A program made the position numbers and the translations under genes. The notes under the pieces are model-generated. The model had not been told where the DNA came from, ran no database searches, and was given only the letters and a program-made list of their open reading frames with translations. Of a stretch of DNA of 64,000 nucleotides, positions 16,844 to 61,181 are shown piece by piece (positions within the stretch are counted from its first letter, which is position 1; every line of letters starts with the position of its first letter). The stretch is from Parcubacteria group bacterium GW2011_GWA2_42_14 (GTDB taxonomy: Bacteria > Patescibacteriota > Minisyncoccia > Sungbacterales > GWA2-42-14), in NCBI GenBank assembly GCA_000998135.1, contig LCCV01000002.1, forward strand, positions 29,421 through 93,420. Direction: 5' to 3'.

Positions 16844-18331
16844 TTATATCAAGCCGCTGATTTTTTCAAAGATTCTATCAAAATTCCTGACGACATCAAA
16901 AATGGTATTGCCGAAAAGAATGATGAAAACTAAAAATAAAATTTTAAGATTTTTATATTGACCATTTTTAATAAATTTTATAGCTTCCATAATACCTACT
17001 CCGGCAAAAATCGCGAAAAAAGCGTAAGAAGGATAACGATAGCGAGTCTCAACCACAATAAAAACAACCGGCAAAACTACGGCGGCCAGAAACGCTAATA
17101 ACCACATCTTGTTTGTGGTGAAAAACGTGTATGGTAAATCCTTCGACTTCGCTTCGCTGCGCTCAGGAAATAATTTATTGCCTGAACCTGTCGAAGGCAT
17201 ACCTTTCTTTGAACTCCAGATTGCTTCTACAATTCCGTAGAAACCGAAGGTAAAAATAATTACCGACCATAAGGAGGAAAGCGACAAAACGACCGCCTGC
17301 CAAGGACTTCCAAAAAGATACGGCCACCAGCCGGTGGGACGCGCAAAACTAAAATACATGGAAATTCTGAAAAAAGTTATTTTTATGAATTCCAGCGGAT
17401 TAAAAAGTATGAAAATGATAGCTTCTTTTGCCGCCAAACGATCCCCGGTAACCATGTCATAATCATTATATTTAGCGGTAAATTGTATGCGCGAATCGTC
17501 AAGTTCTCCGGACGAGCCGGGGTGATTTCCGGATAAAAGGTCGTCCCCAAACGTTAAACTTGTCGGAATAAAAGCGCCATACACCTTGAAATTGCGGATT
17601 GTCCAAGGAGTCATCACCGCCAGAATGACCGCCGTAAAAATCGCCAAACTGATAAACAATTTCTTTTTGTAAAAAAAATAAATAAAGGGCAAAAAAATCA
17701 AAAGCAAAGGAGTTCTCACAAGAACAGACGCGGCAAAAACAAAACCGAGAAGCGCGGCCAATTTAATGCCCGATTTATCAAGTATGCGAAAAAAAATAAA
17801 AATGGATAACAGCATTAAAAAAATAGCGAGGGTTTCGGCAAGAAGCATGGAACTGCCGATTATTAAATCGGGGTAAAAACCGAATATAACAGCCGCAATT
17901 AAAGCGGCGGCACGCACGTTTAAGGTCGGACCTTCCGCGGAAGGTCCGACCTTTCGCATAATCAAAAAAACCAAAAGAACTGACAAAGCGTGAAATATCG
18001 CCTGCAAGAACCAAACTACCTCATAATGATGCCCAAAAATAAAATAAACCCCCACCAGAAAAAATTCATAGCCCGGGCCTACCCTGCCGATAGAATTATC
18101 TTTTTCAAACGGAAGGTCAAAATTTTGGCGATAACCATGACCATTTAATATATTCACGGCAATACGGTCATAAGCTCCGGCATCAACCGAAGGTTCAATC
18201 TGAAAATAAAAAGAATGGGTCAAAGACAGCAAAAAAGAGGCAAATACAATGCCCCAAAGCAACTTTTTCCAATTCGCATTAACAAAATTCAAAGCACAAA
18301 GCACCAAATCCCAAATAAATTCAAACTTCAA
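16844..18331 (-). CDS. Polytopic membrane glycosyltransferase, ArnT/PMT-like (GT39/GT83). Carries an in-frame repeat insert.
   Basis: N-terminal ...DAGAYDRIAVNILNGHGY... loop and many TM helices. Residues MPSTGSGNKLFPERSEAKSKDLPYT are encoded by palindromic repeat 17130-17215. The annotated N-terminus (MKFEFIWDLVL) lies inside the intergenic IR element 18291-18406, so the real start is probably downstream. Confidence 0.6.
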   Translation of the reverse strand: MKFEFIWDLVLCALNFVNANWKKLLWGIVFASFLLSLTHSFYFQIEPSVDAGAYDRIAVNILNGHGYRQNFDLPFEKDNSIGRVGPGYEFFLVGVYFIFGHHYEVVWFLQAIFHALSVLLVFLIMRKVGPSAEGPTLNVRAAALIAAVIFGFYPDLIIGSSMLLAETLAIFLMLLSIFIFFRILDKSGIKLAALLGFVFAASVLVRTPLLLIFLPFIYFFYKKKLFISLAIFTAVILAVMTPWTIRNFKVYGAFIPTSLTFGDDLLSGNHPGSSGELDDSRIQFTAKYNDYDMVTGDRLAAKEAIIFILFNPLEFIKITFFRISMYFSFARPTGWWPYLFGSPWQAVVLSLSSLWSVIIFTFGFYGIVEAIWSSKKGMPSTGSGNKLFPERSEAKSKDLPYTFFTTNKMWLLAFLAAVVLPVVFIVVETRYRYPSYAFFAIFAGVGIMEAIKFIKNGQYKNLKILFLVFIILFGNTIFDVVRNFDRIFEKISGLI

Positions 18332-18406
18332 AATTCAGATATTAAAACTTATGTATTTTAAGCATTTGGATTTTGATATTATTTGGGATTTGGGATTTTA
18401 AAATTG
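18291..18406. repeat. Intergenic inverted-repeat element (family ccaaatcccaaat...ttcaaaattcaa / ttgRattttgRtattatttgggatttg), copy 1 of 4.
   Basis: Other copies are at 22511-22666, 50333-50457 and 59438-59556. Each lies between the stop of one minus-strand gene and the start of the next. Confidence 0.6.
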
Positions 18407-22481: not shown

Positions 22482-22662
22482 TTAATAAATCCTTAATCCA
22501 ATTCCAAAAAACCCCAAATTCAAAATCCCAAATTCCAAATATCAAAATTCAAATAATAAATACAAAATATATTACTGTTTGAATTTTGAAATTTTCCGCC
22601 GAAGGCGGATCCGCCTCTGGCGGAGAATTTATTTGGGATTTGGTGCTTTGGATTTTGAATTT

Positions 22663-47400: not shown

Positions 47401-48078
47401 CGCATCCTGTCCAATGCCCTGACGTTCAACTGTTACGGAGCTGACAGTTACATCACCGTCAGAACCGGCAGTAAACACTACACTGGTAAATGGAACGCGA
47501 GTTACACTCAACGGAACCAAGGCCGCGGCAGGCTGTGCACCTGCTGATACGCTAAGACCTGTTCCTGATGGAACTGTTGGCGTTGTTGGTGTTTCTGTGG
47601 TTGGCGTTGTTGGTGTTTCTGTGGTTGGCGTTGTTGGAGTTGTTGGAGTTGTTGGAGTTACCGGAGCCACTGCCATTGAATTATACTTTGCCTGGGAAAT
47701 TGGACCAAAGTATCCGACGGCCGGAGAAACCCCGTTTGCCGCCTGCCAAGCAGCTACTGCCGCTTGAGTGACAGAACCGAAATATCCGGTGGCACCCCCC
47801 GCATAAGTGAAGTGACCTGTTGAAGTTAAATAATTCTGCAAGCATGTTACAGCATCCCCTCTTGAACCGACTGTAAGAGCGCTAGTGAAACCGCAAGCGG
47901 CTCCGCCGCCACCTCCTCCGCCGGAAAGGGCGACGAGTTGTGCTTGAAGGGCCGTGATTTGAGCTTGCAACTGGGCAATGAGATCTGCCGTTGACTGTTG
48001 CGCCAATGACGCGACAGGGGTCAGAACCAAAGCTCCGGTAAGCCAAACCGCGGCTGAGGTTGAAATAAATTTATTCAT
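44461..48078 (-). CDS. Giant (1205 aa) secreted cell-surface protein with an N-terminal peptidoglycan-binding-like domain, a PTT-repeat linker and long Thr/Gly/Val-rich beta-repeats.
   Basis: Signal peptide MNKFISTSAAVWLTGALVLTPVASLAQ. A Gly run. PG_binding_1-like GSRGDAVTCLQNYLTSTGHF...GYFGSVTQAAVAAWQAANGV. (PTTPTTETPTT)n linker. The remainder is Ig-like beta-rich. Confidence 0.65.
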   Translation of the reverse strand: MNKFISTSAAVWLTGALVLTPVASLAQQSTADLIAQLQAQITALQAQLVALSGGGGGGGAACGFTSALTVGSRGDAVTCLQNYLTSTGHFTYAGGATGYFGSVTQAAVAAWQAANGVSPAVGYFGPISQAKYNSMAVAPVTPTTPTTPTTPTTETPTTPTTETPTTPTVPSGTGLSVSAGAQPAAALVPLSVTRVPFTSVVFTAGSDGDVTVSSVTVERQGIGQDAALSGIVILGEDGLQLGLSKTLNSLHQAVLTEPFTVKAGTSKTMTIAANRGATTGYSGQVIRLTVVAVSAGSATVTGLPVAGTGQTMNETSGLVGGFDLIRGPLDPSTTGITKEVGTTGYVFSSIKGTAGAGEDIWIKSVKFNQSGSAATADLANVKVYVAGTAYDTTVSSDGKYYTSVFGTGVKVLKGNTAEIYVKGDIVSGSARTVDFDIYRHDDLYVVGAQYGYGLLPADTGTAGFDSASPAYNANAINIGAGSIVVSKSTAVASQNVAVTLADQPLGGFDVEVKGEAVTIPETSFRFTLSDSDGGAEIDVDDIDNIVLVGPSGAVVAGPVDGQAGNTVNSLVAHGYVTFTDSITFPIGKGLYTLKGKLAATSGFENNDTIIASTTPGTDWRNGTGAVTGTAVTPTPAGQVTGNTMTVKSAVVTVTLSSDPPAQNVVMGIQGFTFAKPVFDATASGEDIRFTTLSFTFADDTGADTTDLTGCQVWDGATALNTGTNVVDIATEGAKTFTLDSHLIIPKGTTKTLAIKCNIPANLTASNQAEWQIAASTLSATGVTSGQAATVTHLASTDDQNEMTLVAGGSLSVSLSASSPTYAIVAGNTTDVPLALLNLHATNEAITLQKLALKLSSTTNNAPADIVKYTLWDGSTKVGEGLFTGTDYSTSTLTADFVIPKDGDKTLTVKGDLSAIGTSQVGTEGALVVVDFDGGSRGTEGVGQSSGSTIQTKTADTAAVSSTASNGVRMFKSYPTFAKVSLSTNKLAAGTVSLLRFKVTADSHGDIGLAKFTFVMSTTSATVQNLRVYGYSDILFSIAAYANSGLLNNTAIPVQNKKEWFSAGTEDNVLYGGGNQFSVYFDPVTQSGSVLGVPTDVIQVPAGATRYFDVVATVSSVSTNSSVSTQLEGDGAYPGLIPGTPSATNPIMGQASTTPSTAGIADQTHNDLIWSPNATTTAALSSKDWTNGFGVVGLPATNMAAEVVSY

Positions 48079-48079
48079 A

Positions 48080-49453
48080 ATTTTTTATCTAAGTTAATTA
48101 TAACTTTTCCAAAAATTTTTTCCGTGGTTCGATAAACTCACCACGAGAAGAAAAAGATGGAAAAGAAATTTACAATCACGATTCATAACCTCTTCGACTT
48201 TACCCGATATTCCAAAGGAAAATTTAGGGTAAAAAAGATTTAAATCGTGAATAACAAAATCAAATTAATAATAATCAATGTTTTGGAGTCAAGTCACCCT
48301 CATGCGTCTTGAATCATGAATCTTGAAACTTGAAACATGAATTACGAAACATGAGATGGTCCGCTCCATCTTGTCATATTTAAATATTTTAATATTTAAA
48401 TATTCAAAGCGGGAGGGTCGACCGGACTTTAAAACTCCTAAATCAAAAACAAATTAAGAATTTACTAATTTTTTCTTTTGCATCCGAACCTAAACCAAAA
48501 CCATCATCAAACAGAAAAGTAATTTTTAATTATCAAGGTTCTTGCCGTTCAGAATCATGAAACATGAAACATGAAATTTCAATCGTTTACAACCAAATTT
48601 CGAAATTAAAGCAACCAAGTTATACTATCAATTCCGAAATTTAATTGCAAATTATATTGTGAATAATGGTGGTTCGATAAACTTACCATAAATTCGGTTT
48701 GCTCACCGCAAGTGTTAAATAACTACAAACAAGCCAAAAATTGGCTCATTTAATTTAAAAAAATTAAGTCATAACTATCTTAAATTATTATATATCTCCG
48801 CAAATGGTTCAACTCTGCTTACCACAAGTATATTATAAACCCACTAAAAATCACTTGCAAATAGGCATTGTGGATAAGTGCTACAGCTTCAAAACCAAAA
48901 TATAGTACTTATATTGCTTAATTTTCAAGCATTTTTGCCATTTCGGCAATAACAGCAATTTAACGGCAAAAAACCAACTTATCTGATATCTGATATTATT
49001 ATTATAAATCATATAAAAAAGCAAATAAACTCTGTTGTGGATAAGTTAATTCTATACAAAAATGGCATAAAAAACCCCATTTGCAACTATCCTTTTTACC
49101 TTTCACGGCATTCAAAGCTCATAGGAGCAGATTTCACGCGAATATTAACACTGATTAACGCGGAAATAAATAACCGGGAATGGCCAAAATCTATCTTAAA
49201 GCCTTAAAAAATAGCTTATTTTATTAAAATTAACCTAATTATTCTGATAAATTCACCTAATTCCTAATTACCTAATTCACCTAATAAAATTTCTAATGCA
49301 CTAATACTTAATTCTTAATTTAAAATTTTGGAATTTGGTTATTTTATTAGAAATTAGGTGAATTAGACAATTAGAAATTCTTTAAGCAAACTCAAAAATC
49401 AGCAAAATTTATCCTTCGACAAGCTCAGGCAATAACCATTTTTGATATGGGTT
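48080..49453. other. 1.37-kb gene-free AT-rich region with short tandem repeats, two perfect DnaA-box nonamers and two covarying hairpins.
   Basis: No ORF of 60 aa or more on either strand. tgtggataa occurs at 48869-48877 and 49036-49044. ggttcgataaact loops sit at about 48125-48150 and 48668-48695 with different stems. catgaaa heptad repeats are present. Confidence 0.5.
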
Positions 49454-50323
49454 CTAAACAATGCTCTCCAAATGTTCTCTAAAACCTTTTTTCACTTCCG
49501 GATGACGAAGACCGAAATCCACGACAGCCTTAAGGAGGCCGAGTTTATCTCCGCAATCATATCTGATTCCTTTGAATTCATAACCGTATAAATTTTCACC
49601 TTTGGCAAGCATTCTTTCAAAAGCATCAGTTAAAAATAATTCCTTACCGGGTTCATATTTTACTTTGGCAAGTTCGTCAAATACCGCGGGCGTCAAAATA
49701 TATTTTCCAACGATTGACAGATTAGACGGAGCCTCCTCTATTGTAGGTTTCTCAATTATTTTCTCTACTTCGTATGTCCTTGATGAAATTTTTTTGCCGC
49801 CAATAACACCGTATTTGTAAACCATTTCTTTGGGAACCCGTTCTAAAGCAAATACCGGCTTATTAAATTTTTCAAAAACGACAGCAAGCTGTTTAAGACA
49901 TGGTATCTTTGAATATACGACATCATCTCCATAAAGGACAGCGACAGGTTCATCGCCAATTAAATGACGGGCCTGCAACAAAGCGTCACCAACCCCAAGC
50001 GGTTCTTTCTGACGGACAAAAGCAAAACGAGCAAGTGATGAAATTTTTCTTATTTCTTTAGCCAAACCATGTTTACCTTTCTTTGTCAGAAAAAATTCCA
50101 GCTCTCCGGCATGGTCAAAATGATCCTCAATAGCGCGCTTGCCCCTGCCGGTAACAAATATGATTTCCTTTATTCCGGAATCAACAGCTTCCTCAACCAA
50201 ATACTGAATAACCGGCTTATCCACAATAGGAAGCATTTCTTTTGGCTGGGCTTTGGTGGCAGGAAGAAAGCGGGTGCCGAAACCAGCTACAGGGATGATG
50301 ACTTTTTTGATTTTAGAAACCAT
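49454..50323 (-). CDS. galU: UTP--glucose-1-phosphate uridylyltransferase.
   Basis: KKVIIPVAGFGTRFLPATKAQPKEMLPIVDKPVIQYLVEEA is the canonical GalU N-terminus. Confidence 0.85.
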   Translation of the reverse strand: MVSKIKKVIIPVAGFGTRFLPATKAQPKEMLPIVDKPVIQYLVEEAVDSGIKEIIFVTGRGKRAIEDHFDHAGELEFFLTKKGKHGLAKEIRKISSLARFAFVRQKEPLGVGDALLQARHLIGDEPVAVLYGDDVVYSKIPCLKQLAVVFEKFNKPVFALERVPKEMVYKYGVIGGKKISSRTYEVEKIIEKPTIEEAPSNLSIVGKYILTPAVFDELAKVKYEPGKELFLTDAFERMLAKGENLYGYEFKGIRYDCGDKLGLLKAVVDFGLRHPEVKKGFREHLESIV

Positions 50324-50520
50324 TTAAATCTAATAAATCCAAATCTCAAAATCCCAAATAAATTCAAACTTCAAAATTCAAGTATAAAAACTTAATTCTT
50401 TAACAATTTGGATTTTGGTATTATTTGGGATTTGATGCTTTGGATTTTGAATTTTTAAACCCGGTTTGTCGCTTATAAACGACACCTGAAATGTCGCTTA
50501 TAATAATGTCGTTTATAAAT

Positions 50521-51375
50521 CTATGCCTTAATTTTATATATTGCCCATCTCTTATCACCCCGTCTTTCAATCGTATTATTACCCATAAGAGCGGCCAGGT
50601 CGCGCTGTAAAGTTTTAATGCTGAATTTGTTGGAAAAAATCTGGGACAAATCAACTGATTTTACCGCTTGATTTTGACGTATGTAATCAAGAATAGTTTG
50701 CCGTCTTTCATTAAAACCGTTTGTTTCTTTATTGACAATACTTTTATGGTTATTTTGCTCAATTCCGTTACCATACCCATTGGAAAGACTATTGCCATTA
50801 CCATTACCGTTTCCATTTCCATTTTCCAAAGATACCTTTTGGCTGTTCACTCCGTTAGAAGTCCACTTTGCAAAAGTATGCATACTATTTGAATGCCCTG
50901 TATAATTACCGTTTCCAACAACATGATTATTATTTTTACTTCTAACGGGGTAAATTATGCTTCTTTCCACTTTGGGCTTGCGGATATTTTTGATGGAAGT
51001 GGAAGCGGTCTGGATTTGAGGAATTGACTTATTCTTTTCCTCTTCTTCTGCTATTTTTTCCGTAAAACACGCCAACTCTCTCTCAAAAAAATTAGCAAAA
51101 AATTCATATTCTCTGTCCAAAACTGCCGTATTAACGGCTTTTACCAGATTACTGAAACGCGCGACTCCAAAATAAGTGCGGATTGCCTGAATTTTTGCAA
51201 GCAGAAACCTGGCATTATTTTCCCCTATTTTTCTGTCATATTCGCAAACCGAAGACAATATTTCATTCGCTTTTTCGCGTATTTGGCGTTTAAGCACTTC
51301 ATCCTTAGGGAATATATCTGTAACACGATATACTGCGAGAGTCAATTCAAATATTTTTTTGTTTAATTCTCCCAT
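50521..51375 (-). CDS. Hypothetical regulator: N-terminal four-helix-bundle (Avd/23S-IVS-protein-like) domain, low-complexity NG repeats, and a C-terminal DeoR-type HTH.
   Basis: IFELTLAVYRVTDIFPKDEVLKRQIREKANEIL resembles four-helix-bundle family proteins. (NG)n run. C-terminal VDLSQIFSNKFSIKTLQRDLAALMGNNTIER is HTH-like. Confidence 0.4.
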   Translation of the reverse strand: MGELNKKIFELTLAVYRVTDIFPKDEVLKRQIREKANEILSSVCEYDRKIGENNARFLLAKIQAIRTYFGVARFSNLVKAVNTAVLDREYEFFANFFERELACFTEKIAEEEEKNKSIPQIQTASTSIKNIRKPKVERSIIYPVRSKNNNHVVGNGNYTGHSNSMHTFAKWTSNGVNSQKVSLENGNGNGNGNGNSLSNGYGNGIEQNNHKSIVNKETNGFNERRQTILDYIRQNQAVKSVDLSQIFSNKFSIKTLQRDLAALMGNNTIERRGDKRWAIYKIKA

Positions 51376-59385: not shown

Positions 59386-59553
59386 TATAACACAGGTAGA
59401 AAACTAAAAAAATAAGCCTAGTTATAAAGGCTAAAACAAATTCCAAATCCCAAGCACCAAATCCCAAATTCAAACTTCAAAATTCAAATCTAAAAAATTT
59501 TTAACATTTAAATTTTGATACTATTTGGGATTTAAGATTTTGAAATTGGGATT

Positions 59554-60600
59554 TTAAAGACTTATTATTTCCTCCCACGGCAGTCCCTCTTTGCCGAAAT
59601 GGCCGTAAGAAGCGGTTTGAAAATAAATGGGACGCCTTAAATTCAATTTTTCAATAATTGCCTGCGGACGGAAATCAAATGCCACTTTGACAAATCCACT
59701 TAAATCTTTACCTTTTTCATCTTCAGCATAAACCATCAACGGCTCGGCTCTGCCTATGGCATAAGCTACGGAAACCAAGCAATTTTTGGCGAATCCATTG
59801 GCAACCAGATTTTTTGCAACGAAACGAGACATATACGCGGCCGAGCGGTCCACTTTGGTCGGGTCTTTGCCGGAAAAAGCTCCTCCGCCATGCGGAAACA
59901 TTCCTCCATAAGTATCAACCATTATTTTTCTGCCGGTGAGTCCGGTATCGGAAGCAAACCCGCCGATAACAAATTTACCGGTGGGATTTACCAAAATTTC
60001 CACTTCTTCTAAATTACCGACTACGGGGCCAATAAGTTTTTTAATCAAATAATCTTTAATTTCCGGCTGGGCTATTTTTTCGTCATGCTGACAGGAAACC
60101 AGAACGGTATTAATTCTTCCGTCATGAATTGTAACCTGGGCCTTACCGTCGGGCCCAAGCCAATAAAAATCTTTATCGTTCCTGCGGAGATTTTCCAATC
60201 CTTTAGTAAGTTTATGAACCAACGAAACAGCCAAGGGTAAAAATTCTTTAGTTTCATCGGTCGCGTAACCGTACATAATTCCCTGGTCTCCCGCCCCGCC
60301 GGTATCCACCCCCTGCGCGATATCGGGAGATTGCTGGACAATATTGGTAATAATATTAAGATTATCCGAATATCCGATATCTTTATAAACGTTTCTCGCG
60401 ATTTCTCCCGCGTCAATTTTTCCTTTGGAAGTTACCTCCCCGCCCACAACCAAAAGATTATGAGAACCGAAAGTTTCCACGGCAACGCGCGAATAAGGGT
60501 CCTTTTCCAGATAAGCGTCAAGAATCGCGTCACTAATTTCGTCGCAAACTTTGTCCGGATGACCGGAGGTGACAGATTCGGCTGTGTAAGTATTATTCAT
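59554..60600 (-). CDS. metK: S-adenosylmethionine synthetase.
   Basis: TAESVTSGHPDK, GGGAFSGKDPTKVDRSAAY and other MetK signatures. The start is probably the Met of MNNTYTAESV (about 60600), not the ORF-track start at 60627. Confidence 0.9.
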   Translation of the reverse strand: MNNTYTAESVTSGHPDKVCDEISDAILDAYLEKDPYSRVAVETFGSHNLLVVGGEVTSKGKIDAGEIARNVYKDIGYSDNLNIITNIVQQSPDIAQGVDTGGAGDQGIMYGYATDETKEFLPLAVSLVHKLTKGLENLRRNDKDFYWLGPDGKAQVTIHDGRINTVLVSCQHDEKIAQPEIKDYLIKKLIGPVVGNLEEVEILVNPTGKFVIGGFASDTGLTGRKIMVDTYGGMFPHGGGAFSGKDPTKVDRSAAYMSRFVAKNLVANGFAKNCLVSVAYAIGRAEPLMVYAEDEKGKDLSGFVKVAFDFRPQAIIEKLNLRRPIYFQTASYGHFGKEGLPWEEIISL

Positions 60601-60665
60601 ATGCATGAAACATGGAACATGCAACATGGAACATGAAAACTATAAACATGCCACTTGCCGCACGC

Positions 60666-60842
60666 CGCTTGTTATTAAAAACACCGCTTATGAGCGGGTC
60701 TTAGATAAAATATTTTATCTTTCCCCGTTCGGTCTTCCTTCGCACGAAGCTTCGGAGGACGAGGATGGATTTAGCACCACATTAACACCTTTTGTTAATA
60801 GGCTGCTGGCGGTTCATTGAGCCAAAACTCTCCCCGCGCTCT
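60666..60842 (-). ncRNA. SAM-I (S-box) riboswitch with terminator in the metK leader.
   Basis: Minus-strand sequence: tttatcaagag (P1 5') ... ggggagagttttggctcaatgaacc ... gtggtgctaaatcc (conserved GUGCUAAAUCC) ... cgaagcttcgtgcgaagg (P4 hairpin) ... aaagataaa (P1 3'). It is followed by hairpin cccgct-cata-agcgg plus a T-tract. Confidence 0.6.
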
Positions 60843-61181
60843 TGATAAATTATTCAATTTTTATAAAACCATCATACTATGAAACGCGAAATGCGCAAGA
60901 AAAGTTATCCACCCCGTTAGAAGTTCGAAAATACACATTGATTTAAAAAATGACACAAAGCGAAAGCGGCTTACCCCGTTAGAAATCCAGCAACATGTCA
61001 ATTACGGCATAACGACGCGGAGCGAAACGGCTCCGCCTTACGTCTTTCTGAATAAAATAAGCTTTTTAAAGATTTCTAACGGGGCTTACGCCTTATGCCT
61101 GTGTCTGAATATGGCCACCCTTAAACCTCTAACGGAGTAAACAAAAACAAAAGGCCCCGAAATGAGGCCCAAGACAAATTA

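What the first reader, a model, noticed from the sequence alone, without database searches (positions are those of the whole stretch)
60666..60842. SAM-I riboswitch controlling metK
The minus-strand leader of metK contains the S-box core (P1 tttatc/gataaa, the GUGCUAAAUCC junction, a P4 hairpin) and a terminator hairpin plus T-tract. SAM-I is classically a Firmicutes feature, so its presence in what looks like a CPR genome is phylogenetically informative. Between it and the ATG lies a short (catgNaa)n tandem repeat (60600-60655) that the ORF track translated as a false N-terminal extension (MLHVPCFMHM).
Basis: partly seen in the sequence, partly recalled or inferred. Interest (0 to 1): 0.5.

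Follow-up and report, generated by a model that had tools for sequence, protein, structure and literature searches.

The report
Ordinary SAM-I riboswitch before metK
The leader of the SAM synthetase gene (metK) of this candidate-phyla-radiation bacterium carries a standard SAM-sensing RNA switch that most likely stops transcription when SAM is plentiful, an arrangement that turns out to be common in this bacterial group.

Summary
The finding holds. Rfam's SAM-I model (RF00162) matches window 60712..60851 (-) over its full length at 63.6 bits (gathering score 44.4, E 1.9e-12). It is the only Rfam hit in the 64 kb. It sits about 105-111 nt upstream of metK on the same strand. P1-P4, the kink-turn signature and the P2-loop/J3-4 pseudoknot are present. 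Twelve of 13 published binding-pocket residues allow the known contacts; the exception is A46->G.

A terminator follows (stem 60697-60684, U-tract 60683-60676). A competing antiterminator (60727-60695) is predicted here and in two close relatives, so this is most likely a transcriptional OFF switch.

The phylogenetic point is weak, however. Of 80 CPR species-representative metK loci, 34 carry RF00162 above threshold, and 58 match a CPR-tuned model.

The CATG heptamer repeat is real (60604-60638). It is part of a ~65-nt insertion absent from the closest relatives. It is one of many period-7 repeats in this genome. Its predicted hairpin is not statistically significant. The N-terminal extension MLHVPCF is not conserved; the start is ATG 60606 or 60600.

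This is a textbook element and of low interest.

The parts
60893..60898 (-). Putative -35 hexamer TTGCGC of the metK promoter.
   Evidence: Read from the sequence. The block is conserved in relatives L081 (TTGCAT) and L084 (TTGCGT) in alignment A1. It has only 3 of 6 matches to TTGACA, so the consensus scan did not call it. Inferred.
60871..60876 (-). Putative -10 hexamer TATGAT, 16 nt after the -35. It is about 20 nt upstream of P1.
   Evidence: The sequence, plus conservation in L081 (TAGGAT) and L084 (TATTAT) in alignment A1. Inferred.
60712..60851 (-). SAM-I (S-box) aptamer, the full four-way junction.
   Evidence: RF00162 at 63.6 bits against a gathering score of 44.4, E 1.9e-12, model positions 1-108 of 108. 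The CPR-tuned model R1 scores it 87.1 bits. The minimum-free-energy fold of exactly this stretch is the P1-P4 junction, -38.0 kcal/mol.
60844..60851 (-). P1 5' strand AAUUUAUC. It pairs with 60712-60719 (GAUAAAAU); 7 of 8 pairs are standard, and there is one A.A.
   Evidence: cmscan alignment and the pair list. The inner four P1 pairs are invariant or nearly so, and the fifth (431/4) has compensatory changes, across 61 CPR aptamers.
60808..60839 (-). P2 with its kink-turn. P2a is G60839 and 60837-60834 paired with 60812-60808. The kink-turn strands are GGA (60833-60831) and AAUGAA (60818-60813). P2b is GAG (60830-60828) paired with CUC (60821-60819). The loop is UUUUGG (60827-60822).
   Evidence: cmscan alignment to the consensus gGA / uaUGAA. 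All five P2a pairs and 2 of 3 P2b pairs show compensatory changes in CPR homologues.
60773..60807 (-). P3. It consists of AGCA/UGCU, CC/GG and an extended 8-bp distal stem, UAUUAACA/UGUUAAUG. The bulged binding-pocket position 60803 is G where the family has A (A46 in T. tengcongensis numbering).
   Evidence: Minimum-free-energy fold. The non-canonical marks in the cmscan alignment come from the longer stem. Position 60803 is G in 3 of 61 and A in 58 of 61 CPR aptamers.
60765..60772 (-). J3/4, AAAUCCAU. C60768, C60767 and A60766 pair with G60822, G60823 and U60824 of the P2 loop to form the pseudoknot. The fourth position is U.U here.
   Evidence: In alignment A2, pseudoknot columns 28-31 with 110-113 are 97.1% paired, and 4 of 4 pairs have compensatory changes.
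60723..60764 (-). P4. The base is CCUCG (60764-60760) paired with CGGGG (60727-60723). It carries a 29-nt internal extension relative to the Rfam consensus.
   Evidence: cmscan shows a 29-nt insert. Fold. P4 length also varies in other CPR aptamers, for example L029 and L067.
60695..60727 (-). Antiterminator, the alternative helix. CGGG (60727-60724) pairs with CCCG (60698-60695), and AGAUAAA (60720-60714) pairs with UUUAUCU (60709-60703). It takes the 3' strands of P4 and P1 and the 5' strand of the terminator.
   Evidence: Fold of -10.7 kcal/mol, z -3.07, or -12.9 kcal/mol, z -2.57. It is part of the unconstrained minimum-free-energy fold of the whole leader, -50.9 against -46.3 kcal/mol for P1 plus terminator. 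The same two-part helix is predicted in L085 (z -3.90) and L081 (z -3.95) despite sequence differences.
60676..60702 (-). Intrinsic terminator. The core stem is CCGCU (60697-60693) paired with AGCGG (60688-60684), with loop CAUA. It can extend through AAGAC (60702-60698) paired with GUUUU. The U-tract is UGUUUUUA (60683-60676).
   Evidence: Terminator scan and folds. Most of the 36 CPR leaders carrying RF00162 at its gathering score (34 genome loci plus L081 and L085) have a hairpin plus U-tract at the equivalent place.
60609..60673 (-). Predicted hairpin made of two heptamer arrays: (RWGYGGC)x3 on the 5' arm and (CAUGUUY)n on the 3' arm. It is a lineage-specific insertion between the terminator and the start codon.
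   Evidence: RNA fold of -21.5 kcal/mol on the minus strand against -10.5 on the plus strand, but z is only -1.56, with 13 of 200 shuffles folding as well. It is absent from L081 and L085, where the ATG follows the aptamer by 38-43 nt. The TRF repeat is 60604-60638.
59554..60606 (-). metK (methionine adenosyltransferase) coding sequence. The start is ATG 60606 (MHMNNTY, as in NCBI) or ATG 60600 (MNNTY). The longer ORF from 60627 is a false extension.
   Evidence: ORF list. 100% identity to P0001, 350 aa, with Pfam PF00438/PF02772/PF02773. N-termini of homologues.

Best explanation
This is a canonical SAM-I (S-box) riboswitch in the 5' leader of metK in a Parcubacteria (CPR) genome. It most likely works as a transcriptional OFF switch.

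- Transcription probably starts about 20 nt upstream of P1, from a conserved promoter-like block.
- When SAM is abundant it binds the four-way-junction aptamer and locks P1 and P4. The sequence CCCGCU is then free to form the terminator hairpin (60697-60684) ahead of the U-tract, and RNA polymerase stops before metK.
- When SAM is scarce, the 3' strands of P4 (CGGG) and P1 (AGAUAAA) pair instead with UUUAUCU and CCCG (60709-60695). This antiterminator removes the 5' arm of the terminator, and metK is transcribed.
- The net effect is feedback control of SAM synthesis.

What is shown: the identity and architecture of the aptamer, the metK context, and conservation with covariation across CPR. 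What is inferred: the promoter, the terminator/antiterminator switch (thermodynamic prediction plus comparison with relatives), and SAM binding itself.

The CATG heptamer repeat and hairpin between the terminator and the start codon is a lineage-specific insertion. It belongs to a genome-wide class of period-7 repeats and is not part of the conserved switch.
For: - Rfam: RF00162 at 63.6 bits against a gathering score of 44.4, E 1.9e-12, full model, and the only Rfam hit in the window.
- Gene context: MetK lies downstream on the same strand.
- Fold: the minimum-free-energy fold at aptamer length is the P1-P4 junction.
- Covariation, MAFFT alignment of 35 CPR aptamers: 89.3% of cells paired against at most 49.7% for slid controls, 24 of 34 pairs with compensatory changes, and 4 of 4 pseudoknot pairs compensatory.
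- Covariation, 61-sequence model alignment: 89.0% against at most 50.1%.
- Consensus match: the window differs from the 85%-or-higher CPR consensus at a single column.
- Terminator: found by an independent scan.
- Antiterminator: z -2.6 to -3.1. It is the ground state of the ligand-free full leader, -50.9 against -46.3 kcal/mol.
- Relatives: the same terminator/antiterminator logic is predicted in L085 and L081 with different sequences. Most other CPR metK leaders have a terminator whose 5' arm, AUCUUUCC, is complementary to GGAAAGAU of the aptamer's 3' end.
- Translational control looks unlikely. The genome is poor in Shine-Dalgarno (SD) motifs: SD-like 4-mers precede 5 of 47 long ORFs, against 5.7% at random positions. 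No SD motif precedes metK.
Against: - Nothing experimental: no ligand-binding or termination data exist for any CPR SAM-I element.
- The core terminator stem has only 5 bp. With the U-tract included, the terminator and a local hairpin can coexist in a short-segment fold (-16.0 against -14.2 kcal/mol). The exclusivity of the two states therefore depends on co-transcriptional order and on the full-leader fold.
- Binding-pocket position A46 is G here. A46 is listed as a binding-site residue in bioRxiv 10.64898/2026.03.23.713157.
- The outermost pseudoknot pair is U.U.
- P1 is very AU-rich, with one G-C pair.
- A close relative, L084 (MetK 86% identical), has lost the aptamer altogether. The control is therefore dispensable in this lineage.
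Confidence: 0.87

Rival explanations
1. The aptamer is genuine but the switch acts mainly on translation, or on both levels. SAM-dependent folding, together with the downstream heptamer hairpin, would control access to the AUGs at 60606/60600 rather than terminating transcription.
For: Three other CPR leaders (L019, L028, L054) place the aptamer only 4-13 nt from the start codon, which suggests translational control exists in the group. In L081 and L085 the terminator U-tract lies within about 10 nt of the AUG. The predicted hairpin 60673-60609 ends 3-9 nt before the start codons and would cover the upstream AUGs at 60634, 60627, 60620 and 60613 (read from the sequence).
Against: In the window the start codon is 105-111 nt beyond the aptamer. 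No SD-like motif is present to be sequestered, and the genome is SD-poor. No predicted pairing links the aptamer to the start region. The hairpin is not significant (z -1.56) and is absent from the nearest relatives. A canonical hairpin plus U-tract sits where S-box terminators sit.
Confidence: 0.07
2. The aptamer is a decaying or retuned copy. The A46->G change in the binding pocket, together with a U.U in the pseudoknot, weakens or alters SAM recognition. The leader would then terminate or read through constitutively, or respond to a related ligand.
For: G at 60803 replaces an A found in 58 of 61 CPR aptamers and printed as highly conserved in the Rfam consensus GCAACC. A46 is counted among the 13 binding-site residues. 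Relative L084 has lost the whole aptamer, so selection on this control can lapse.
Against: This is the only deviation from the 85%-or-higher consensus. All helices, the kink-turn and the other pocket residues are intact. The same G occurs in two distant CPR aptamers, L013 and L030, which keep the rest of the fold, so it looks like a tolerated variant. The score is well above the gathering threshold. The terminator and antiterminator are intact.
Confidence: 0.05
3. The match is a chance resemblance in an AT-rich intergenic region and there is no riboswitch.
For: None beyond the AU-rich P1.
Against: E 1.9e-12 over the full model. The position and strand are right, before metK. Homologous elements lie at the same place in 58 of 80 CPR genomes, with compensatory changes in every helix and in the pseudoknot.
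Confidence: 0.01

Closest known systems
SAM-I / S-box riboswitch (Rfam RF00162). Examples are the Bacillus subtilis S-box leaders, including metK and yitJ, and the Thermoanaerobacter tengcongensis aptamer (PDB 2GIS).
   Same: - Four-way junction P1-P4.
- Kink-turn in P2 (GGA / UGAA).
- Pseudoknot between the P2 loop and J3/4.
- Conserved pocket residues A6, U7, C8, G11, A45, C47, U57, G58, C59, A87 and U88.
- Location in the 5' leader of a SAM-metabolism gene.
- A terminator/antiterminator expression platform in which the 3' strand of P1 is shared.
- OFF-switch logic. The mechanism of the family rests on established knowledge: Grundy & Henkin 1998 and McDaniel et al. 2003, as cited in PMC5473149.
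   Different: - A46 is G.
- G89 is A, which gives a U-A rather than a U.G pair in P1.
- P4 carries a 29-nt extension, and P3 is about 4 bp longer than the consensus.
- P1 is almost entirely A-U.
- The core terminator stem has only 5 bp.
- The antiterminator also recruits the 3' strand of P4.
- A heptamer-repeat insertion of about 65 nt separates the terminator from an SD-less start codon.
- The host is a Parcubacteria (CPR) genome rather than Firmicutes.
SAM-IV and SAM-I/IV riboswitches (same Rfam clan, CL00012).
   Same: [quoted passage not shown]
   Different: They differ in their peripheral helices and pseudoknots. Here a SAM-I-type P4 and the P2-loop/J3-4 pseudoknot are present. cmscan keeps only the best match among overlapping clan members, and that match is SAM-I. 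This element is therefore not a SAM-IV or SAM-I/IV member.
Short tandemly repeated repetitive (STRR) heptanucleotide sequences of cyanobacteria. This is a resemblance for the CATG repeat only, recalled from memory and not tested here.
   Same: Tandem heptamers in intergenic regions that occur many times in one genome. In this window, period 7 accounts for 21 of the 71 TRF rows.
   Different: The units are different (CATGTTY, AAATCCC, AAATTCA). The arrays here are often arranged as inverted pairs that fold into long hairpins. The host is a CPR bacterium. No relationship or function is established.

Membership tests
SAM-I riboswitch (RF00162) | The covariance-model score reaches Rfam's curated gathering score (44.4 bits) over the full model. 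| tested here: met
   63.6 bits, E 1.9e-12, model positions 1-108 of 108, at 60712..60851 (-).
SAM-I riboswitch (RF00162) | Four-way junction with helices P1, P2, P3 and P4. | tested here: met
   The minimum-free-energy fold of 60851-60712 gives exactly these four helices, -38.0 kcal/mol. In CPR homologues 89% of cells are paired against at most 50% for slid controls, with compensatory changes in every helix.
SAM-I riboswitch (RF00162) | Kink-turn in P2: a 3-nt bulge followed by tandem G.A/A.G pairs. | tested here: met
   GGA (60833-60831) lies opposite AAUGAA (60818-60813), matching the consensus gGA / uaUGAA. This tests the sequence signature only; the three-dimensional kink was not tested.
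SAM-I riboswitch (RF00162) | Pseudoknot between the P2 loop and J3/4. | tested here: met
   Three of four pairs form in the window: G60822-C60768, G60823-C60767 and U60824-A60766. The fourth is U.U. Across 35 CPR aptamers 97.1% of cells are paired, and all four pairs show compensatory changes.
SAM-I riboswitch (RF00162) | Conserved ligand-pocket nucleotides: A6, U7, C8, G11, A45, A46, C47, U57, G58, C59, A87, U88 and G89 (T. tengcongensis numbering; list from bioRxiv 10.64898/2026.03.23.713157). | tested here: inconclusive
   Eleven of 13 are identical. G89->A keeps the P1 pair. A46->G at 60803 is the one real deviation; G is found in 3 of 61 CPR aptamers. The mapping to 2GIS uses that sequence as recalled from memory. 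It is consistent with the residue numbers given.
SAM-I riboswitch (RF00162) | Location in the 5' leader, on the same strand, of a methionine/SAM metabolism or transport gene. | tested here: met
   metK starts 105-111 nt downstream on the minus strand. The same arrangement is seen in 58 of 80 CPR loci.
SAM-I riboswitch (RF00162) | An expression platform with mutually exclusive structures that share the 3' strand of P1 (terminator/antiterminator, or SD sequestration). | tested here: met
   Terminator at 60697-60684 plus U-tract. The antiterminator 60727-60695 overlaps P1, P4 and the terminator's 5' arm. This rests on prediction only.
SAM-I riboswitch (RF00162) | Selective SAM binding and SAM-dependent repression. 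| not testable with these tools
   This needs in-line probing or ITC, and in vitro transcription or reporter assays.

The most novel reading that the evidence does not exclude
The metK leader may be a composite regulator. The canonical SAM-I switch is followed by a strand-specific hairpin built from two complementary heptamer arrays (60673-60609). That hairpin would bury four upstream AUGs and leave only the AUGs at 60606/60600 exposed in an SD-less leader. On this reading it is one instance of a genome-wide, functional class of heptamer-array RNA hairpins in CPR bacteria, acting in start-site selection, mRNA stability or termination, rather than neutral repeat DNA. A related possibility is that the recurrent A46G pocket variant (3 of 61 CPR aptamers) retunes ligand affinity.
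Probability: 0.1. Interest if true: 0.45.

Novelty: already known. Interest (0 to 1): 0.2.

Why it matters
For this locus, the result gives a correct annotation. It identifies a cis-regulatory RNA, sets the metK start at 60606 or 60600, and shows that an ORF called on the opposite strand over the riboswitch is probably a false gene.

More broadly, it shows that ultra-small CPR genomes, which have few recognisable regulators, commonly keep SAM-I feedback control of SAM synthetase. That holds for 34 to 58 of 80 species representatives. I found no paper reporting this in the searched library, but it is an expected extension of a very widely distributed riboswitch class. It is a useful footnote, for example as a native ligand-responsive element for future genetic tools in Patescibacteria. 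It is not a surprise to a specialist.

Tried and rejected
- **Significance of the CATG-repeat hairpin.** The fold is -21.5 kcal/mol but z is only -1.56, with 13 of 200 shuffles folding as well. I do not treat it as an established structure.
- **Repeat copy-number variation (phase variation).** Two other assemblies, L086 and L087, have an identical leader. The other three metagenome matches to the terminator 19-mer were unrelated sequences. No variation was seen.
- **Conservation of the repeat.** It is absent from the closest relatives L081, L085 and L084, so I rejected it as part of the conserved switch.
- **SD sequestration.** No SD-like motif is present, and the genome is SD-poor.
- **A replication origin in the ORF-free region 48079-49453.** It holds two perfect TTATCCACA boxes. 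However, GC skew stays negative across the whole window with no switch, and near-matches to the box are not clearly enriched (23 found, 15.3 expected). Not supported.
- **Rfam at a permissive E-value over 47800-51200.** Only noise hits.
- **Literature.** No paper in the held library pairs SAM-I with Patescibacteria or CPR. The Parcubacteria genome paper mentions only the absence of FMN riboswitches.
- **RNAalifold on the raw MAFFT alignment.** It recovered only P1, P2b and P3, because of indels in P2a and P4. I resolved this by specifying the Rfam-type structure and re-aligning with a covariance model.

Full report
**Observation.** On the minus strand, Rfam's SAM-I model (RF00162) matches window 60712..60851 over its whole length, model positions 1-108. 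The score is 63.6 bits against a curated gathering score of 44.4, with E 1.9e-12. It is the only Rfam family found in the 64 kb at gathering thresholds.
- P1, UUUAUC paired with GAUAAA;
- GGUGCUAAAUCC;
- a P4 hairpin;
- a hairpin plus T-tract at 60697-60676;
- a 7-nt tandem repeat, CATGGAA on the + strand, at 60604-60638, 4.6 copies.

The only correction is that the aptamer begins at 60851. The 600-nt leader is identical in two other public assemblies.

**Anatomy.** From the cmscan alignment and the folds:
- P1 is 60851-60844 paired with 60719-60712; 7 of 8 pairs are standard and nearly all are A-U.
- P2a is G60839 and 60837-60834 paired with 60812-60808.
- The kink-turn signature is GGA (60833-60831) opposite AAUGAA (60818-60813).
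- P2b is 60830-60828 paired with 60821-60819.
- P3 is 60807-60773, with a distal stem longer than the consensus. This explains the non-canonical marks in the cmscan alignment.
- J3/4 is 60772-60765. Its CCA pairs with UGG of the P2 loop to form the pseudoknot.
- P4 is 60764-60723, with a 29-nt extension.

Folding exactly the aptamer stretch gives this four-way junction as the minimum-free-energy structure, -38.0 kcal/mol.

I mapped the window onto T. tengcongensis numbering. The 2GIS sequence was recalled from memory, but it is consistent with the residue numbers quoted. Eleven of the 13 residues listed as the binding site are identical. G89->A keeps a P1 pair. A46 is G at 60803.

**Gene and organism.** The downstream ORF is MetK. 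It is 100% identical to methionine adenosyltransferase of Parcubacteria group bacterium GW2011_GWA2_42_14, and its homologues carry the three S-AdoMet synthetase Pfam domains. The nearest named relatives are Candidatus Sungbacteria, at 76-77% identity. Homologues start MHKTY, MRNTY or MNNKVY. The ORF-track extension MLHVPCF, from ATG 60627, is therefore spurious. The start is ATG 60606 (as in NCBI, and homologous to the ATGCAT start of L085) or ATG 60600. Gene order is conserved in relatives: an NYN-domain gene, then metK, then a gene with a POTRA_1 domain.

**Comparative evidence.** A scan of one genome per species returned 80 metK loci, all from CPR/Patescibacteria or mislabelled CPR bins.
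- RF00162 reaches its gathering score immediately upstream of metK, on the same strand, in 34 of them. It also does so in two closer relatives from metagenomes, L081 and L085.
- I built a covariance model from 35 of these aptamers. It finds such an element in 58 of the 80 loci, plus L081, L085 and the window, and nowhere else in the window.
- At least two of the 22 loci without a hit have almost no upstream DNA.
- The hits span Sungbacteria, Woesebacteria, Moranbacteria, Uhrbacteria, Jorgensenbacteria, Wildermuthbacteria, Lloydbacteria, Falkowbacteria, Kaiserbacteria, Gribaldobacteria, Portnoybacteria, Paceibacteria and Microgenomates, by the record titles.

On the MAFFT alignment, which was not fitted to any structure, the Rfam-type structure plus pseudoknot gives 89.3% standard pairs, against at most 49.7% when partners are slid. 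Twenty-four of 34 pairs have compensatory changes, and no shuffle out of 500 reaches the observed values. All four pseudoknot pairs have compensatory changes. The 61-sequence model-based alignment agrees.

The window departs from the 85%-or-higher consensus of these 61 aptamers at one column only, the A46 position. That column is A in 58 sequences and G in 3: the window, L013 and L030.

**Mechanism.** After the aptamer comes CCGCU-CAUA-AGCGG followed by UGUUUUUA, called independently as terminator-like. The 3' strands of P4 (CGGG, 60727-60724) and P1 (AGAUAAA, 60720-60714) can instead pair with UUUAUCU (60709-60703) and CCCG (60698-60695). This forms a two-part helix that takes up four bases (60698-60695) at the terminator's 5' side, three of them in its core stem.
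- This helix is predicted with z -2.6 to -3.1.
- For the whole leader up to the U-tract, the unconstrained minimum-free-energy structure (-50.9 kcal/mol) contains this antiterminator. The P1-plus-terminator state is at -46.3 kcal/mol. That gap is the kind ligand binding is expected to bridge in an OFF switch.
- The same two-part antiterminator is predicted in L085 (AUGGGG/CCCCAU with GAUAA/UUAUC, z -3.9) and in L081 (GGG/CCC with AGAUA/UGUCU, z -3.95) despite sequence changes.
- Among the 36 CPR leaders carrying RF00162 at its gathering score (34 genome loci plus L081 and L085), most have a hairpin plus U-tract directly after the aptamer. Its 5' arm, typically AUCUUUCC, is complementary to GGAAAGAU at the aptamer's 3' end. 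Only L019, L028 and L054 place the aptamer 4-13 nt from the start codon.
- The genome is SD-poor: SD-like 4-mers precede 5 of 47 long ORFs, against 5.7% at random positions. metK has no SD-like motif. Control by transcription termination is therefore the natural reading.
- A promoter-like block, TTGCGC (60898-60893), 16 nt, then TATGAT (60876-60871), is conserved in L081 and L084. It is inferred, not shown.

Caveats on the mechanism: the core terminator stem has 5 bp. In a short-segment fold the terminator can coexist with a local P1-3' hairpin. Nothing has been tested experimentally.

**The repeat.** In L085 and L081 the start codon follows the aptamer by 38-43 nt, directly after the terminator. 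The window has about 65 extra nucleotides there. The insert consists of three heptamers, RWGYGGC, followed after a spacer by the CAUGUUY heptamers. On the mRNA strand these can pair through several G.U pairs into a hairpin at 60673-60609: -21.5 kcal/mol, against -10.5 on the other strand. The z-score is only -1.56.

Period-7 arrays are the commonest tandem repeats in this window, 21 of 71 TRF rows. They include similar TTCATGT arrays at 48310-48354 and 48552-48576. In relative L084 the riboswitch is replaced by a (TTCATAA)n array. I therefore read the CATG repeat as one instance of a genome-wide repeat class inserted into the leader, not as part of the conserved switch. A role in start-site exposure or mRNA stability is not excluded.

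**Comparison with what is known, and novelty.** This is a member of RF00162. It resembles the S-box leaders of Firmicutes in fold, gene context and OFF-switch logic. Its particularities are A46G, a long P4 and P3, an AU-rich P1, a short terminator, an antiterminator that also uses P4, and the heptamer insertion.

SAM-I is described as one of the most widely distributed riboswitch classes (PMC5473149). I found no paper in the held library that reports it in CPR. The survey here shows it is the rule upstream of CPR metK, so its presence is not phylogenetically striking.

**Verdict.** The finding is correct, and the element is already known in kind. Interest is low, 0.2.

Noticed in passing
window 18280-18405 (+), 50320-50455 (+), 59425-59560 (-): A family of long imperfect hairpins of about 110 nt. 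They are built from inverted heptamer arrays, AAATCCC/AAATTCA paired with TGAATTT/GGGATTT. RNA folds are -33.5, -31.6 and -32.9 kcal/mol, with z -5.9, -4.6 and -3.2. The third copy starts right at the metK stop codon (59554) and may act as its terminator or as a repeat element. A shorter relative lies at 22535-22595.
   Followed up: partly
whole window, e.g. 18317, 19116, 21449, 22509, 25880, 48310, 48552, 49256, 50360, 59437, 60604: Tandem repeats with a 7-nt period are strongly over-represented, making up 21 of 71 TRF rows, and lie mostly between genes. This recalls cyanobacterial STRR heptamers (from memory). No function is known.
   Followed up: partly
window 7726-7736/7815-7825, 50850-50860/50940-50950, 61074-61084/60974-60984, plus 60912-60922: Pairs of inverted 14-nt arms, ACCCCGTTAGAWAT and ATWTCTAACGGGGT, lie about 75-90 nt apart with unrelated sequence between them. 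There are 8 matches to the 11-mer at one mismatch or fewer, against 1.3 expected. An extra direct copy sits 14 nt upstream of the putative metK -35. The copy pair at 61084/60974 lies in about 220 nt that relative L081 lacks. The same pairs occur in L008 and L062. This could be a protein-binding site or a small mobile or structured element.
   Followed up: partly
window 48079-49453: A stretch of about 1.37 kb has no ORF of 70 aa or more on either strand, which is unusual for a compact CPR genome. GC is low (0.34 in 48-52 kb). It is full of short tandem repeats and contains two perfect TTATCCACA (DnaA-box-like) 9-mers at 48869 and 49036. GC skew does not change sign anywhere in the window, so an origin is not supported. 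There are no Rfam matches at E<=1.
   Followed up: partly
L084:290-486 (Logan SRR22387914 contig; MetK 86% identical): This close relative keeps the promoter-like block and the first bases of P1 (ATAATTTAT). The aptamer and terminator are replaced by a (TTCATAA)n heptamer array, and metK starts with GTG. This is a natural loss of the riboswitch.
   Followed up: partly
L086:1287-1481 (-), equivalent to about window 60620-60814 (+); window ORF 60605..60820 (+), 71 aa: A public gene call places a 64-aa protein with no Pfam hit on the strand opposite the riboswitch and heptamer hairpin. It is almost certainly a false gene caused by the unannotated RNA element.
   Followed up: no
L019:2887-2990, L028:2855-2975, L054:2852-2984: In these three CPR genomes (Woesebacteria, a Microgenomates-group bacterium and one unnamed bin) the SAM-I aptamer ends only 4-13 nt before the metK start codon, with no room for a terminator. 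This suggests a translational variant of the same switch within CPR.
   Followed up: no
L067:1936-1999 (+): An Rfam DUF3800-II RNA (RF02961, 72.8 bits) lies about 800 nt upstream of the SAM-I element in a CPR bin.
   Followed up: no
window, 47 long ORFs: SD-like 4-mers (GGAG, GAGG, AGGA) occur at -18..-4 of only 5 of 47 long ORFs, against 5.7% at random positions. The genome appears to initiate translation largely without SD pairing. This is a rough count, because the start codons were not curated.
   Followed up: partly
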